Shown here in pieces: positions 7,463 to 53,692 of a DNA stretch of 64,000 nt (its first letter is position 1; each line of letters starts with the position of its first letter). Made by a program: the position numbers and the translations under genes. The notes under the pieces are model-generated. The model did no database searches. It had not been told where the DNA came from and saw only the letters and a list, made by a program, of their open reading frames with translations. This DNA comes from an uncultured Candidatus Saccharibacteria bacterium. Lineage in GTDB: Bacteria > Patescibacteriota > Saccharimonadia > Saccharimonadales > JAGQNJ01. The stretch covers positions 1,250 to 65,249 of the forward strand of contig CAZEED010000004.1 in assembly GCA_964510945.1 (NCBI GenBank), read 5' to 3'.

Positions 7463-7504
7463 AACATATATTGCTACTGAATTAATTCAGTAGCAATATA
7501 TGTT
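7463..7504. promoter_or_regulatory. Perfect 42-bp palindrome (operator or hairpin)
   Basis: AACATATATTGCTACTGAATT|AATTCAGTAGCAATATATGTT. It lies between the nudix stop (7581) and the AbrB-like start (7389). On the minus strand it is followed directly by a TGTAGAAT -10-like box and has no U-tract. Confidence 0.5.
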
Positions 7505-49754: not shown

Positions 49755-49831
49755 TGGTGTCGGTGGTTGGAATTGAACCAACGACCTCAGGCTTATGAGT
49801 CCTGCGCTCTAACCAACTGAGCTACACCGAC
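49755..49831 (-). tRNA. tRNA with CAT anticodon (elongator Met or lysidine-dependent Ile2; not distinguishable by eye), CCA encoded
   Basis: Hand-folded: acceptor GTCGGTG/CACCGAC, D arm GCTC/GAGC, anticodon arm CAGGA-CTCATAA-GCCTG (31:39 A.G), T arm GTTGG-TTCAATT-CCAAC. Confidence 0.88.
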
Positions 49832-49989
49832 ATGGTTACCGACAGGGGTAAATATATCATATCTTAGCTTTTGATACTAGATTGCATGTCATACTTTCTC
49901 CATCAGCAGAGAAATTATGCAAAGATGCCGTGCCGACTGCTTATTCTTGATATAGCTTCTGATCAATAACTACAACAGCCTGCGGAACG

Positions 49990-50355
49990 ACGAGCGCCCC
50001 GAATAGTTCTTTTAGTGTAATTATTCGGGGTAGTCCTCGGCTAACTAGTTGTAGTATTGACGAAGTTATTCAAGAAAAACAGAGGCAGTACTATTAGTTA
50101 TACTCATAAAATACTGGCCATAAGCCAGATTACAATAGTGAAACTAAGCTTTGGGATGGGCCTCTGATTGGTCCTGAGTAGATGTTGTGAAAAGTAGGCG
50201 CCCTTGGGCGCGAGGACTGTTTGAGATATGAATATGCCTGGTGGCATATTCATATTGAGTTCCACAGCGAGCCTACTTTTTATCAACAGATACATCAAGA
50301 GCTATCATCTGGCCCGCTGGTTTTATATTACTTTTGACTAAACAAAAGTAATGAT
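49990..50355 (+). ncRNA. Candidate structured RNA of unknown class
   Basis: Gene-free stretch with long perfect helices: 49997..50008/50019..50030; 50032..50039/50211..50218; 50190..50199/50271..50280; 50226..50238/50243..50255; 50327..50336/50343..50352. The helix extensions need G.U pairs that exist only on the + strand. Confidence 0.35.
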
Positions 50356-50387
50356 ATCACGGGATTAAATCCGTAAAGATAGGATTT

Positions 50388-50561
50388 TTAGTCCTCTATA
50401 TATTGGCCAACCTTATAACCAACCCAGATTCCGATAATTGTACCAACAAAGCCGCAAAGCAGACTCCAACCCGACAACATATTATTATTACCAAAAATAG
50501 CCGGTACATAAGCACCGGCTAGCCCACCGATTGAAGCAAAAATATATATAAATATTTTCAA
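50388..50561 (-). CDS. Small (57 aa) two-TM Gly-rich membrane protein, TTG start (tentative)
   Basis: Own translation: (M)KIFIYIFASIGGLAGAYVPAIFGNNNMLSGWSLLCGFVGTIIGIWVGYKVGQYIED*. It is preceded by a 25-codon ORF (50574..50651, MGDLTYEVVETDNVAIREVDSILFS*) that has a GGAG RBS. Confidence 0.4.
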   Translation of the reverse strand: MKIFIYIFASIGGLAGAYVPAIFGNNNMLSGWSLLCGFVGTIIGIWVGYKVGQYIED

Positions 50562-50723
50562 CTTATTTCTCGGTTAACTGAAAAGTATGCTGTCTACTTC
50601 TCTTATTGCTACATTGTCTGTTTCGACAACTTCATAAGTAAGATCGCCCATAGTTTTGGACTCCTTTTTGTTTTGTTAGTTTGTTAATTTTTTGTTTTGT
50701 TTTAATTTAAAACTGTACTTAAC

Positions 50724-50751
50724 ATTATACATAAGAACTTTAATTTGTCAA
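50724..50751 (-). promoter_or_regulatory. Consensus promoter for the small-ORF pair
   Basis: Minus strand: TTGACA (50746..50751), 16 nt spacer, TATAAT (50724..50729). Confidence 0.55.
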
Positions 50752-50850: not shown

Positions 50851-50925
50851 TGCGGGATGGAGCAGCGGCAGCTCGCGTGGCTCATAACCACGAGGTCGTA
50901 GGTTCGAGTCCTACTCCCGCAACCA
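50851..50925 (+). tRNA. tRNA-Met CAT, probably initiator (fMet), CCA encoded
   Basis: Hand-folded: acceptor TGCGGGA/TCCCGCA, D arm GAGC/GCTC with A11:U24, anticodon arm CGTGG-CTCATAA-CCACG, T arm GTAGG-TTCGAGT-CCTAC. It is close overall to E. coli tRNA-fMet (..GGAGCAGC..GCTCG..GGCTCATAACC..AGGTCG..CCCGCAACCA). Confidence 0.88.
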
Positions 50926-51118
50926 AGAAAAGAGACTTGTCATTTTGACAGGTCTTTTTTCTTGGTCGGAAGTTGGGCTCGAAGCTACGACCGAGTAGAG
51001 GTCCTAGGTGAAAACAGCCCGATGGCTGTTTGCAAGAGAATGTTCACCTGACAGCTGTGCTGTCTTGGCAGAACTTCTGGGCCCGCAGAATGTGGGCGAG
51101 TCCTGGTCCCGCAACCAA
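50919..51118 (+). repeat. 200-bp direct repeat, copy 1 (tRNA end core + trailer unit B1)
   Basis: Compared base by base with 52696..52895 and found identical. Confidence 0.9.
50933..50960 (+). terminator. Terminator after the initiator-like tRNA (second identical copy at 52710..52737)
   Basis: AGACTTGTC-ATTTT-GACAGGTCT followed by TTTTT. Confidence 0.7.
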
Positions 51119-51307
51119 AATATGAACCTCATCGTAAGCTGGGGTTTTTATTTTGGTTATGGGGCTTAGGGCCGAACTGGACATCCTGAGGTCCCAGGGG
51201 AGAACTGCCATGGTGGCAGTTCGGAAGAGAACAAACTCTTGAAAACTGGTTTTCAAAGATGTTTTTCTGGGGTCGCGGAACGTGACCGAGTCCTGGTCCC
51301 GCAACCA
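51118..51307 (+). other. Non-coding unit B2 ending in the same tRNA-end mimic
   Basis: Ends ...TTCTGGGGTCGCGGAACGTGACCGAGTCCTGGTCCCGCAACCA, homologous to the end of B1. It contains the hairpin GAACTGCCA-TGG-TGGCAGTTC. Confidence 0.6.
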
Positions 51308-51956
51308 ATCATAAGCAAATTTGTTACCTCTGCAAAAAGAGGTTTTTTACTTTACTTCTATATGTTTAACAATTGTGTCCACAACAGTTTCTACAGGCTG
51401 AGAGCTATCTATAAGGATTGCTCCAGTCGTGCGTTCATATTCTTTAGAGCGTTCATTCCAGTCAATTAGACCCTGTAATTCAGCAGAGCCGTCAACCCAT
51501 CGCTCTGGCTCACGAGCTTGCAAACGCACTATCAAAGTAGGTGTATCTACGAAGAGGCCGAAACGTTTATCAAATAAGTGGTGAAAATCTTTCTGGTTAT
51601 GTGCTCCTCCGACGATAAATACAGGTTCCTCACCTGCTTCACGTGCCAACTCCTCAAACCTAAGGACATCCCATAGCCATGCATGAGTATCTACCCACTC
51701 TTTCGGAAATGGTTGTGATGGTGCTTCTACCTTCTTGCCAGTCTCCTTGTTCACCCACGCACTTAAACCAGGCTCAAAGTCAGTCTCTACAACCTTGAGA
51801 CCTCGTTTTTGTAATTCCCTACCGGCATGGCTCTTGCCGGAACCAGAGGGACCAGAAATGTGATATAAAGGCACGCTTTATATTATACCTATAATTGTTT
51901 CCATCTGGTCAATCCAGCAAGCAATCCGTTCCAATTCGAGTGAACCTTGGCAACCA
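51308..51956. mobile_element. Cassette-like unit A (R2 arm ... P-loop gene ... L2 arm)
   Basis: Starts ATCATAAGCAAATTTGTTACCTCTGCAAAAAGAGGTTTTTT and ends ...CCAATTCGAGTGAACCTTGGCAACCA. Confidence 0.4.
51347..51874 (-). CDS. P-loop NTPase, nucleoside/nucleotide kinase-like
   Basis: ISGPSGSGKSHAGREL Walker A; about 175 aa. Confidence 0.7.
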   Translation of the reverse strand: MPLYHISGPSGSGKSHAGRELQKRGLKVVETDFEPGLSAWVNKETGKKVEAPSQPFPKEWVDTHAWLWDVLRFEELAREAGEEPVFIVGGAHNQKDFHHLFDKRFGLFVDTPTLIVRLQAREPERWVDGSAELQGLIDWNERSKEYERTTGAILIDSSQPVETVVDTIVKHIEVK

Positions 51957-52702: not shown

Positions 52703-52895
52703 AGAAAAGAGACTTGTCATTTTGACAGGTCTTTTTTCTTGGTCGGAAGTTGGGCTCGAAGCTACGACCGAGTAGAGGTCCTAGGTGAAAACAGCCCGAT
52801 GGCTGTTTGCAAGAGAATGTTCACCTGACAGCTGTGCTGTCTTGGCAGAACTTCTGGGCCCGCAGAATGTGGGCGAGTCCTGGTCCCGCAACCAA
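52696..52895 (+). repeat. 200-bp direct repeat, copy 2 (unit B1')
   Basis: Identical to 50919..51118. Confidence 0.9.
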
Positions 52896-53692
52896 TCATA
52901 AGCAAATATTTTGCCTCTGTAAAAGGAGGTCTTTTTTAGTAACCTCCTACACCCTCTTCTGGTTGGTCGTAATATTGTGCCTTAAAATGCTCAATCATCG
53001 TCTCAAATATCTCTCTGATGTGAGGGGAGCTCCTCTCGATTACATCTTTGTACTTGTCGCAAAAAGACTGATAATTTATATTTAAAATGCGGTATGGTCG
53101 CCATTCATCCATTTCGCCCATAATTAATGCCTGCACTTTATCAACGGTCCATACAAACACAGCCTCGTCATCTTCCTTATCTTCATAACTCTGCATTGCT
53201 ACCACGAGACCACCGAAGTCTGCAAACTCGCCAGATAGCACTTCGAGTGCTACCGCTTCATCTTCAACTTTTTGTTGGCGTTCTGCATCGCTGGCAAATG
53301 CATTCACATCACCTGCTCGAGCTTCAATAAGGTCATGAGCAAGTGCATACTTCAGTACTTTAGCTTCATCAAGTTCTAAATTATACTTTTCAAGAATAAA
53401 CCAGCTCATCAGCGTAACCGCCAAGGTATGCTCACAGTCGTTTTCTCGGCGTTCAGTACCTGCTAGAAAATGGTTTCGGCCTACAAGCGAGAAGTCAATA
53501 ACAAGTTGCTGGACAAAATATAGCGTGGGGTCAGGTGCCTCACCCATTGCGGGCTGAGTCTTCCTTTCATGCTCAGGGTCTATCATAGTATCTAAATACT
53601 AGACTATGGTGTAGAAACCGCAAGCTTGAGCATCTTCCACCTAACCAGCTCCTCTAGCACAATGCTCCAATTCGAATACACTAGGGCAACCA
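52895..53692. mobile_element. Cassette-like unit C (R2 arm ... HD gene ... L2 arm)
   Basis: Starts ATCATAAGCAAATATTTTGCCTCTGTAAAAGGAGGTCTTTTTT and ends ...CCAATTCGAATACACTAGGGCAACCA. Confidence 0.4.
52936..53586 (-). CDS. HD-domain phosphohydrolase (paralogue of 2842..3453)
   Basis: ENDCEHTLAVTLMSWF...LKYALAHDLIEARAGD. Confidence 0.75.
   Translation of the reverse strand: MIDPEHERKTQPAMGEAPDPTLYFVQQLVIDFSLVGRNHFLAGTERRENDCEHTLAVTLMSWFILEKYNLELDEAKVLKYALAHDLIEARAGDVNAFASDAERQQKVEDEAVALEVLSGEFADFGGLVVAMQSYEDKEDDEAVFVWTVDKVQALIMGEMDEWRPYRILNINYQSFCDKYKDVIERSSPHIREIFETMIEHFKAQYYDQPEEGVGGY

What the first reader, a model, noticed from the sequence alone, without database searches (positions are those of the whole stretch)
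49990..50355. Gene-free ~360-nt stretch with long perfect helices: unassigned structured RNA between two Met-type tRNAs
The 556-nt gap between the CAT tRNA (5' end 49831) and the small ORF ending at 50388 has no credible ORF but contains unusually long complementary segments:
- H1: 49997..50008 with 50019..50030, 12 bp including one G.U.
- H2: AGTCCTCG 50032..50039 with CGAGGACT 50211..50218.
- H3: AAAAGTAGGC 50190..50199 with GCCTACTTTT 50271..50280, extendable by G.U, U-A and G.U.
- H4: ATATGAATATGCC 50226..50238 with GGCATATTCATAT 50243..50255, 13 bp with a tetraloop.
- H5: ATTACTTTTG 50327..50336 with CAAAAGTAAT 50343..50352.

The helix extensions rely on G.U pairs that would be C.A on the other strand, which favours the + strand. 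H2 and H3 cross each other, so they form either a pseudoknot or alternative folds.

A hairpin directly followed by GGGGUAGUCCUCGGCU is faintly reminiscent of the RNase P P3/P4 region. I could not find the universally conserved AGGAAAGUCC or ACAGAA elements, nor any tmRNA or SRP signature.
Basis: seen in the sequence. Interest (0 to 1): 0.6.

Follow-up and report, generated by a model that had tools for sequence, protein, structure and literature searches.

The report
Inverted pair of palindromic intergenic repeats
The supposed single 360-nt structured RNA is really two diverged, head-to-head copies of a previously undescribed ~230-nt hairpin-forming repeat found in a subgroup of Saccharibacteria, whose function (mobile DNA, cis-acting transcript element or RNA gene) is still open.

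Summary
No Rfam family matches it. The reading as one + strand RNA does not hold.

The locus holds two homologous units in convergent orientation: W1 (49890-50087, +) and W2 (50352-50158, -). Each unit is a small conserved palindromic hairpin, an A-rich linker and a ~160-175-nt rod with a conserved apical junction. H1 and H4 are the two apical hairpins. H3 is a W2 rod helix. H5 is W2's 5' hairpin. H2 is only cross-copy complementarity of an invariant block.

The same family occurs in other Saccharibacteria contigs, usually as one type-1 plus one type-2 copy. It sits at different genomic sites, sometimes with a gene between or replacing the copies.

Arm mismatches show no G.U over A.C bias. Solo copies all follow a co-oriented gene's stop codon, and some carry an outward TGnTAYAAT promoter.

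Best reading: a new low-copy palindromic intergenic repeat, similar to MITE, REPIN or Correia elements. A pair of paralogous ncRNA genes is not excluded.

The parts
49890..49919 (+). hp1 of copy W1: the small 5' palindromic hairpin CATACTTTCTC-N8-GAGAAATTATG.
   Evidence: It is aligned with hp1 of all other copies. Helix 1 is 90% paired, and 4 of its 9 pairs show double changes. It forms in the MFE fold.
49931..50087 (+). Rod of copy W1 (type 1), a long imperfect hairpin. Its base pairs TGCC-GA-CTG with CAG-A-GGCA. Invariant blocks are CTGCGGAA (49980-49987), AGTCCTCG (50032-50039) and CAGAGGC (50080-50086).
   Evidence: It is 87-89% identical to the syntenic copy L001a, whereas 4-fold sites of the flanking genes are only 52-62% identical.
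49996..50031 (+). Its sequence is conserved in all type-1 copies.
   Evidence: I2. The hairpin is conserved in L001a, L141a, L139a and L120b.
50114..50128 (.). Small hairpin CTGGCCATAAGCCAG between the two convergent copies. On the - strand it is followed by TATTTTAT, which looks like a terminator for W2.
   Evidence: The equivalent hairpin is present in L001a, L120 and L141.
50158..50315 (-). Rod of copy W2 (type 2b), read on the - strand.
   Evidence: It is homologous to L141b, L121 and L149, with compensatory changes such as GTAGGC/GCCTAC in the window against ACAGGC/GCCTGT in L121 and TCAGGC/GCCTGA in L141b.
50198..50211 (-). Extra side hairpin GCGCC-CTTG-GGCGC, specific to the type-2b variant.
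   Evidence: The same hairpin is present in L121, L141b and L149.
50226..50255 (-). Its sequence differs in every type-2 copy, but the pairing is kept.
   Evidence: I7. Searches show different sequences forming the same hairpin at the same position.
   Evidence: I13. It is the only match to TACTTT..AAAGTA in the window, and the same motif occurs at the 5' end of copies in 11 other loci.
50359..50374 (-). hp0, a further small hairpin ACGGATTTAATCCCGT between the stop codon of the 57-aa ORF and hp1 of W2.
   Evidence: Analogous hairpins lie upstream of hp1 in L120a, L120b, L141c, L121 and L149.
50388..50561 (-). Context: a 57-aa Gly-zipper-like membrane peptide ORF, co-oriented with W2. Its stop codon lies 13 nt before hp0. 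It is driven by a consensus TTGACA-16-TATAAT promoter at 50751-50724.
49755..49831 (-). Context: tRNA-Met (CAT), downstream of the pair on the - strand and divergent from W1.

Best explanation
The locus holds a convergent pair of copies of a previously undescribed family of intergenic palindromic repeats. The family is low in copy number and restricted to a subclade of Saccharibacteria.

Shown:
- Each unit is about 230 nt. It consists of one to three small 5' hairpins, the last being the sequence-conserved palindrome hp1, then an A-rich linker, then a ~160-175-nt imperfect hairpin (the rod). The apical junction of the rod, CUGYGGAAC-[hairpin]-AGUCCUCG, and its base, GCC-GA-CUG / CAG-A-GGC, are conserved.
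- Two types exist. Type 1 has a fixed apical hairpin. Type 2 has a variable apical hairpin and a 3' bulge UCAAAC. The window has one of each.

Inferred:
- The units behave as mobile or exchangeable DNA. They occupy different intergenic sites in related genomes, are replaced by or flank accessory genes, and their similarities do not follow host relatedness.
- Arm complementarity is kept at the level of a DNA palindrome or a folded single strand rather than by RNA wobble-tolerant selection.
- The mobilising enzyme is unknown.
- When they lie behind a co-oriented gene they are co-transcribed as a very stable 3' hairpin. This may block, terminate or process the transcript, as proposed for Correia and ERIC elements.
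- Some type-2 copies supply an outward extended -10 promoter for the next gene.
- The convergent pair in the window would then act as a double hairpin barrier between the small-ORF operon and tRNA-Met, and as a recombination hot spot.
For: - Two homologous units in inverted orientation are present in the window and in L001.
- Further copies occur in L120, L141, L139/L140, L149 and L121/L073, with distant pairs in L128 and L095.
- The rod and hp1 structure is kept. 89% of cells are paired against about 42% when the partners are slid, 19 of 40 pairs show double changes, and 0 of 500 shuffles reach the observed value.
- The mismatch spectrum between arms is random: 664 Watson-Crick, 25 G.U-type, 23 A.C-type and 81 transversion-type. 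Single-side (wobble) changes are rare. Both strands fold equally well.
- The genomic site varies. The DUF5661-to-sigma site is filled in L120 and L141. In L143 only a remnant remains. In L139 a Ser-hydrolase gene has replaced the copies, leaving a remnant of hp1 and the rod base. The topA site is filled in L139 and L149 but not in L141 or L143.
- A class I SAM methyltransferase gene lies between the copies in L001.
- L141a is closer to W1 (83-85%) than to L120b at the same site (70-79%).
- L141 has three copies within 20 kb.
- All solo copies (L121, L139a, L139b/L140, L141c, L149) begin within about 35 nt after the stop codon of a co-oriented gene. L139a, L139b/L140, L141c and L149 are also co-oriented with the next gene; in L121 the next ORF is convergent.
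- The shared 3' tail CAAAACTGCTAYAAT / GAAATGCTACAAT sits in front of three different genes, and L143 has a different sequence upstream of HIT.
- Assemblies of relatives break inside the pair.
- No Rfam family matches.
Against: - Copy number is very low: only the one pair in 64 kb, and none in L002-L009.
- Copies within a genome are old and diverged (about 65%), so there is no sign of a recent burst.
- No terminal inverted repeat plus target-site duplication signature was found. No transposase, integrase, HUH enzyme or reverse transcriptase was found in the window or in any fetched locus.
- The syntenic copies W1 and L001a are 87-89% identical although neutral sites are near saturation. That indicates purifying selection for a host function, or else recent exchange.
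- One type-1 plus one type-2 copy is retained in five lineages. This looks more like two genes than like selfish repeats.
- A U.G at one rod position is conserved in 9 of 11 copies.
- Mobility is inferred from presence/absence only. No clean empty site with exact junctions was obtained.
Confidence: 0.5

Rival explanations
1. W1 and W2 are two paralogous genes for structured non-coding RNAs (type 1 and type 2) of a new Saccharibacteria-specific class. Each would be a 5' hairpin plus a rod whose conserved apical junction binds a protein or another RNA. The pair would work together or redundantly, like 6S-1/6S-2 or GlmY/GlmZ.
For: - Type 1 and type 2 are distinct and old, and they co-occur in the window, L001, L120, L141 and L139.
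- Sequence conservation is strong relative to synonymous sites.
- The type-1 apical hairpin and the junction blocks are conserved in sequence across distant copies.
- Covariation is present in all helices.
- Terminator-like hairpins follow the sense strand of W2 and L120a.
- Solo copies show an orientation bias.
Against: - There is no excess of G.U over A.C and no strand preference in folding.
- No consistent promoter lies upstream of copies that lack a co-oriented gene (sequence inspection).
- The orientation of the pair relative to the surrounding gene array flips between the window and L141.
- Copies are lost, truncated or replaced in close relatives.
- A third, divergent copy exists in L141.
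- The family is rare. The three-block pattern scan of the metagenome collection returned only five contigs that carry a family member (L120, L121/L073, and more distantly L128 and L095).
Confidence: 0.27
2. The units are folded single-strand recombination or transposition substrates: ends or attachment sites of a cassette system analogous to integron attC sites, IS200/IS605 ends or REPINs. A recombinase or HUH enzyme encoded elsewhere would recognise them. Type 1 and type 2 would be the left and right ends bracketing cargo genes.
For: - Structure is conserved with variable sequence, and there is no wobble bias.
- Units start directly 3' of co-oriented ORFs, as attC sites do.
- Cargo genes lie between or in place of the inverted copies: a methyltransferase in L001 and a Ser hydrolase in L139, whose left junction is at exactly the position where hp1 starts in L141.
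- hp1 has the arm-spacer-arm layout of a recombinase core site.
- A 35-nt insertion in the hp1 loop of L140 keeps the hairpin.
Against: - There is no RYYYAAC/GTTRRRY attC core at the rod base (sequence inspection).
- No integrase, Y1/HUH or Xer-like gene lies next to any copy.
- Most pairs carry no cargo.
- The units are longer (about 230 nt) than any known attC or REPIN.
Confidence: 0.18
3. One reading: a single ~360-nt structured RNA on the + strand with a pseudoknot (H2 x H3), possibly a divergent RNase P-like or other housekeeping RNA.
For: The helices exist and the region folds well. AGUCCUCGGCU faintly resembles the RNase P CR-I region.
Against: - The region is two homologous units.
- H2 is cross-copy complementarity and is not used in the MFE fold of the full pair.
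- The units are separated or solitary in relatives.
- There is no RNase P, tmRNA, SRP or 6S hit even at E<=10 in three different loci.
Confidence: 0.03

Closest known systems
REPINs (inverted REP doublets mobilised by RAYT transposases) and BIMEs
   Same: They are intergenic. They consist of inverted, diverged repeats that fold into a long imperfect hairpin. Structure is kept by compensatory changes. They are vertically persistent and can be low in copy number.
   Different: The W units are 2-3 times longer. They are asymmetric, with a 5' hp1 module and a 3' tail. They come in two conserved types. No RAYT (Y1 transposase) gene was seen in any sequence held here.
Correia elements (Neisseria) and ERIC/IRU elements (Enterobacteria): MITE-like palindromic repeats
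   Same: They are whole-length imperfect palindromes in transcribed intergenic regions, often just after a stop codon. They occur in subtypes, some carry outward promoters, and they are co-transcribed into hairpins that alter mRNA processing.
   Different: Those families have tens to hundreds of near-identical copies, defined terminal inverted repeats and (for Correia) a TA target duplication. W has 2-3 diverged copies per region, no recognisable duplication, and much stronger between-species conservation than neutral sites.
Integron attC sites
   Same: The element lies immediately 3' of a co-oriented ORF. It is an imperfect palindrome with conserved structure, conserved bulges and a variable apical part. 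It shows no wobble bias, as expected for a folded DNA strand.
   Different: There are no R''/R' core motifs and no integrase. W is 230 nt against 57-141 nt for attC. Copies are mostly inverted pairs without a cassette array.
6S RNA (including the paralogue pair 6S-1/6S-2 of Bacillus)
   Same: It is a rod-like RNA of about 180-200 nt closed by its 5' and 3' ends, and two paralogues per genome are possible.
   Different: W has no large two-sided central bubble; the largest loop is about 9 x 2 nt. There is no Rfam 6S hit at E<=10 in three loci. No strand preference was found. Copies are lost or replaced in close relatives.
Bacterial RNase P RNA
   Same: A hairpin is followed by an ..AGUCC.. motif.
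   Different: W has no CR-I, CR-IV or CR-V elements. The candidate P4 partner CAGAGGC instead pairs locally at the rod base. There are two copies per locus. No cmscan hit was found.

Membership tests
Bacterial RNase P RNA (Rfam RF00010/RF00011) | Match to the covariance model, which encodes the conserved regions (AGGAAAGUCC, ACAGAA) and the P4 pseudoknot. | tested here: not met
   cmscan gave no RNase P hit at the gathering score or at E<=10 in the window, L120 or L141. CAGAGGC pairs with GCC..CUG at the rod base.
6S RNA (RF00013 and related) | Match to the covariance model, and a large central bubble flanked by a closing stem and a terminal stem. | tested here: not met
   No hit at E<=10. MFE and consensus structures show only small asymmetric loops.
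tmRNA / SRP RNA | A tRNA-like domain with a tag reading frame (tmRNA), or the helix 8 motif (SRP RNA). | tested here: not met
   ARAGORN finds no tmRNA. There are no Rfam hits.
MITE (non-autonomous DNA transposon) | Terminal inverted repeats. | tested here: inconclusive
   Each rod is an inverted repeat over its whole length, and the pair as a whole has ~230-bp inverted arms. However, the unit is asymmetric (hp1 on one side only) and the exact termini are not defined.
MITE (non-autonomous DNA transposon) | Target-site duplication, and clean filled versus empty sites. | tested here: inconclusive
   No flanking direct repeat is visible. The sites that lack the element (L143, L139) carry remnants or other genes rather than clean empty sites.
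MITE (non-autonomous DNA transposon) | Many similar copies per genome and a related autonomous element with a transposase. | tested here: not met
   There are two copies in 64 kb and three in 20 kb of L141, all diverged. No transposase was found in any held locus. Whole genomes could not be scanned.
REPIN/RAYT system | A hairpin-forming inverted repeat doublet together with a single-copy RAYT (Y1 transposase) gene in the same genome. | not testable with these tools
   The hairpin doublet-like architecture is met. Presence of a RAYT gene elsewhere in the genome cannot be checked, because only 64 kb plus loci of at most about 20 kb are held.
Integron attC site | R'' (RYYYAAC) and R' (GTTRRRY) core sites at the base of the hairpin, and an integron integrase or attC array. 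| tested here: not met
   The rod base is TGCC-GA-CTG / CAG-A-GGCA in the window, and is similar in all copies. No integrase and no array were found.
Independent structured ncRNA gene | Covariation supporting a structure on one defined strand, with wobble pairs tolerated on that strand. | tested here: inconclusive
   Covariation is strong. However, G.U-type and A.C-type mismatches are equal in number (25 vs 23) and both strands fold alike.
Independent structured ncRNA gene | Own promoter and terminator, and a discrete transcript. | not testable with these tools
   Only pattern scans were possible. They found no consistent promoter, and terminator-like hairpins after W2 and L120a only. No RNA-seq data were available.

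The most novel reading that the evidence does not exclude
Type 1 and type 2 are a conserved two-component system specific to a Saccharibacteria subclade. One possibility is a pair of paralogous structured RNAs with a host function. The other is folded single-strand recombination sites of an as yet unknown cassette-exchange system that moves small accessory genes (methyltransferase, Ser hydrolase) between naturally competent CPR (Candidate Phyla Radiation) bacteria.
Probability: 0.25. Interest if true: 0.7.

Novelty: new variant of a known kind. Interest (0 to 1): 0.45.

Why it matters
Saccharibacteria have tiny, highly syntenic genomes with very little non-coding DNA, and almost nothing is known about their repeats, mobile DNA or regulatory RNAs.

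A ~230-nt structured element is kept much better than synonymous sites. It is retained as one type-1 plus one type-2 copy. It changes site between close relatives and sometimes brackets accessory genes or supplies promoters. Such an element is a concrete handle on how these reduced, naturally competent genomes exchange genes or insulate transcription units.

In practice, it also explains why assemblies of these organisms break at this locus. It also warns that inverted duplicates can look like a large pseudoknotted RNA.

Tried and rejected
- Rfam at the gathering score and at E<=10 on the window region and on two homologous loci gave only tRNAs and noise.
- RNase P-like P4 pairing (AG(U)CCUC with GAGGC preceded by ACA) was considered from the sequence. 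I rejected it because covariation places CAGAGGC in the rod base and there are two copies.
- 6S RNA was rejected because there is no central bubble and no model hit.
- Small-peptide coding inside W1 (ATGCCGTGCCGA...) was rejected because frames and lengths differ between W1, L001a and L120a.
- A type I toxin-antitoxin reading (small hydrophobic ORF with convergent RNAs) was rejected because the upstream genes in other genomes are unrelated: DUF5661, topA, a PEGA-domain protein and a tRNA synthetase.
- Phage or plasmid origin is not supported. The strict pattern found no match in IMG/VR, and there was no blastn match in the phage or plasmid collections.
- Synteny-based retrieval with TilS gave only one informative relative, L001. 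L002-L009 lack the element.
- The strict three-block pattern in metagenomes returned 59 loci, of which only five contigs are family members.
- Promoter inspection upstream of the copies that have no co-oriented gene gave nothing consistent.
- Literature searches for Saccharibacteria or CPR non-coding RNAs found nothing relevant.
- The taxon of L128 could not be named.

Full report
**Observation.** The stretch between tRNA-Met(CAT) on the - strand (49755-49831) and the 57-aa ORF (50388-50561, -) has no credible ORF. The region folds far better than dinucleotide shuffles, but equally on both strands. For 49980-50360 the z-score is -7.5 on + and -7.7 on -. cmscan against Rfam 15 finds only the tRNAs at the gathering score and nothing meaningful at E<=10. 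ARAGORN finds no tmRNA.

**What the structure really is.** The window comes from a Saccharibacteria (TM7, Candidate Phyla Radiation or CPR) genome. All close TilS relatives are Saccharibacteria. In the closest one, L001 (TilS about 80% identical), the sequence next to the syntenic tRNA-Met matches the window only up to about 50130. A second, weaker match lies in inverted orientation about 900 bp away, with a class I SAM methyltransferase gene in between. Aligning the four pieces shows that the window holds two homologous units in convergent orientation: W1 on the + strand and W2 on the - strand.

Each unit has three parts:
- a small 5' hairpin, hp1, whose stem sequence (C)AT(T)ACTTT / AAAGTA(A)T(G) is conserved;
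- an A-rich linker;
- a ~160-175-nt imperfect hairpin (the rod), whose base (GCC-GA-CUG / CAG-A-GGC) and apical junction (CUGYGGAAC-[hairpin]-AGUCCUCG) are conserved.

In window coordinates:
- hp1(W1) is 49890-49919, and the W1 rod is 49931-50087.
- The W2 rod is 50158-50315, and hp1(W2) is 50327-50352.

- H1 is the apical hairpin of W1.
- H4 is the apical hairpin of W2.
- H3 is an inner helix of the W2 rod.
- H5 is hp1 of W2.
- H2 pairs the invariant block AGTCCTCG of W1 with its reverse complement in W2. It is a by-product of the inverted duplication.

When the complete pair (49885-50380) is folded, both strands give two separate rods plus the hp1 hairpins, and H2 is not formed (z = -10.1 and -9.2).

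**The family.** A strict three-block pattern scan of metagenome contigs, and contigs fetched through neighbouring proteins, gave further copies:
- L120 and L141 each carry a convergent pair between a DUF5661 gene and a sigma-like gene.
- L139, L140 and L149 carry solo copies after topA, after a tRNA synthetase gene, and before def or HIT.
- L121/L073 carries a solo copy 20 nt after a PEGA-domain gene.
- L141 has a third, divergent copy.
- L128 and L095 carry distant convergent pairs.

Two types are recognisable. Type 1 has an apical hairpin CCCCGAAUAGUU..AAUUAUUCGGGG that is conserved in sequence, with a 5' bulge. Type 2 has an apical hairpin that differs in every copy but always pairs, with a 3' bulge (U)CAAAC. 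A sub-variant, 2b, carries an extra GCGCC-loop-GGCGC hairpin; W2 is of this kind. The window, L001, L120, L141 and L139 each have one type-1 and one type-2 copy. None of these loci matches any Rfam family. The element has no match in viral contigs, phage records or plasmid records. In the 64-kb window the pair is the only occurrence.

**Structure conservation and strand.** I counted pairs on the 11-copy alignment using the RNAalifold consensus:
- 89% of cells are paired, against about 42% when the 3' partners are slid by 1-3 columns.
- 19 of 40 pairs show changes on both sides.
- None of 500 shuffles reaches the observed values.

Single-strand pairing, or at least arm complementarity, is therefore maintained. 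The signal is not RNA-specific, however. I aligned each 5' arm to the reverse complement of its 3' arm. This gave 664 Watson-Crick positions, 25 G.U-type, 23 A.C-type and 81 transversion-type mismatches. That is the random 1:1:4 spectrum. One-sided (wobble) changes are rare, and sense and antisense energies are similar. The pattern is what a DNA palindrome or folded DNA strand would show, or an element that must pair on both strands.

**Constraint and turnover.** W1 and its syntenic counterpart L001a are 87-89% identical, while four-fold degenerate sites of the flanking TilS, FtsH and MurJ genes are only 52-62% identical. The unit is therefore either under strong purifying selection or has been exchanged recently.

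The element is also unstable in location:
- The DUF5661-to-sigma site holds a pair in L120 and L141.
- In L143 only a short remnant (TTCCACAG...) is left at that site.
- In L139 a Ser-hydrolase gene starts exactly where hp1 starts in L141. It is followed by an inverted remnant of hp1 plus the rod base. L139 is a close relative of L141, with 97% identity in the sigma-like protein.
- The site after topA is filled in L139 and L149 but not in L141 or L143.
- At two orthologous sites the type-2 partner differs in variant between relatives: 2b in the window against 2a in L001, and 2b in L141 against 2a in L120.
- L141a is closer to W1 than to the type-1 copy at the same site in L120.
- Assemblies of relatives often end inside the pair.

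No transposase, integrase, HUH enzyme or reverse transcriptase is encoded in the window or next to any copy.

**Relation to genes.** Every solo copy (L121, L139a, L139b/L140, L141c, L149) begins within about 35 nt after the stop codon of a co-oriented gene, by 2 to about 35 nt. L139a, L139b/L140, L141c and L149 are also co-oriented with the next gene; in L121 the next ORF is convergent. In pairs, the copy next to the upstream gene is likewise co-oriented. W2 follows the 57-aa ORF, which has a consensus TTGACA-16-TATAAT promoter. L141a and L120b follow DUF5661. The orientation of the pair as a whole relative to the gene array is not fixed: type 2 comes first in the window and type 1 comes first in L141.

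Three type-2-like copies end in the same extended -10 motif: CAAAACTGCTAYAAT in L139b/L140 and L141c, and GAAATGCTACAAT in L149. This motif sits in front of three unrelated genes (def, DUF4260, HIT). L143, which lacks the element, has a different sequence upstream of HIT. These copies therefore seem to bring a promoter with them.

**Interpretation.** The best-supported reading (confidence about 0.5) is that the finding is an inverted pair of a new, low-copy family of intergenic palindromic repeats, of the general kind of REPINs, Correia/ERIC elements and other MITE-like sequences. The architecture, the homology, the covariation, the lack of strand bias, the site variability and the association with stop codons and promoters are shown. 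Two things are inferred: that the units move or are exchanged as DNA (by an unknown enzyme, or by transformation plus recombination in these naturally competent bacteria), and that when co-transcribed their very stable hairpins act in cis on the transcript.

Several features do not fit a selfish repeat: the low copy number, the old divergence between copies in one genome, the retention of one type-1 plus one type-2 copy, and conservation far above neutral. These features keep two rivals alive. One is a pair of paralogous structured ncRNA genes (about 0.27). The other is folded single-strand recombination sites or transposon ends bracketing cargo genes (about 0.18).

**Comparison with known families.** RNase P, 6S, tmRNA and SRP membership was tested with covariance models and by their defining structural features, and was not met. 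MITE, REPIN and attC are resemblances in how the element may work. Their defining features (target duplication, a partner transposase or RAYT, attC core sites, an integrase) were either not met or not testable with the sequence available, so I do not file the element as a member of any of them.

**Verdict.** The feature is real, strongly structured and conserved, and absent from Rfam. Its anatomy differs from what was proposed, and it is most likely a new variant of the palindromic intergenic repeat theme rather than a new housekeeping RNA. Interest is moderate (0.45). It would rise considerably if the type-1/type-2 pair proves to be a functional RNA pair or a cassette-exchange system.

Noticed in passing
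window 50926-51346 and 52703-52933: Directly after tRNA-Met(+) (50851-50925) lie two tandem ~190-nt structured units, U1 (50926-51122) and U2 (51123-51346).
- Each ends in a copy of the tRNA's 3' part from mid T-loop: GAGTCCTggTCCCGCAACCAA.
- U1 recurs 100% identical at 52703-52895, followed by a U2-like piece.
- The direct repeats bracket a P-loop kinase-like gene and a HAD hydrolase gene.
- Strain L135 has a different arrangement: one hydrolase, fewer U units and no kinase.
- A U-like sequence also sits next to tRNA-Met in L004.
- The fold z-score is -8.7, and there is no Rfam hit.
This looks like tRNA-targeted integration modules or an unknown tRNA-like repeat.
   Followed up: partly
L131:1-138, L133:1-105, L134, L137, L142 (contig ends): Many independent assemblies of close relatives end inside or right next to the W pair. 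This suggests that the inverted repeat breaks de Bruijn-graph assemblies, and it may hide structural variants such as inversion or cargo.
   Followed up: no
L140:326-388: One type-2 copy carries a ~35-nt insertion inside the loop of hp1 (CGGGGTCCCCAAAAACCCTGTTTTTAGGGGTGTAG). The insertion is itself hairpin-forming, and the hp1 stem is kept.
   Followed up: no
window 50724-50751 (-) and 50574-50651 / 50388-50561 (-): A perfect consensus promoter (TTGACA-16-TATAAT) drives two very small ORFs of 25 aa and 57 aa. The 57-aa product is a Gly-zipper-like membrane peptide. W2 lies in the 3' untranslated region of this small operon, and on the same strand the transcript would run on into W1 (antisense) and tRNA-Met.
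   Followed up: partly
window 7463-7504: A perfect 42-bp palindrome (AACATATATTGCTACTGAATT / AATTCAGTAGCAATATATGTT, no spacer) lies in the intergenic region between the 182-aa ORF and the NUDIX gene.
   Followed up: no
L128:6270-6668 and L095:1490-1984: Distant convergent pairs of the same architecture occur on contigs of unknown taxon; the L128 contig is 640-785 kb long. One copy has hp1 (CATACTTTT..AAAAGTATG), a CAAAACTTCC linker and a GC-closed rod. The other is a type-2-like copy. The first copy has a different apical junction (UCUGCGUAACUCGC...), which may be a third type.
   Followed up: partly
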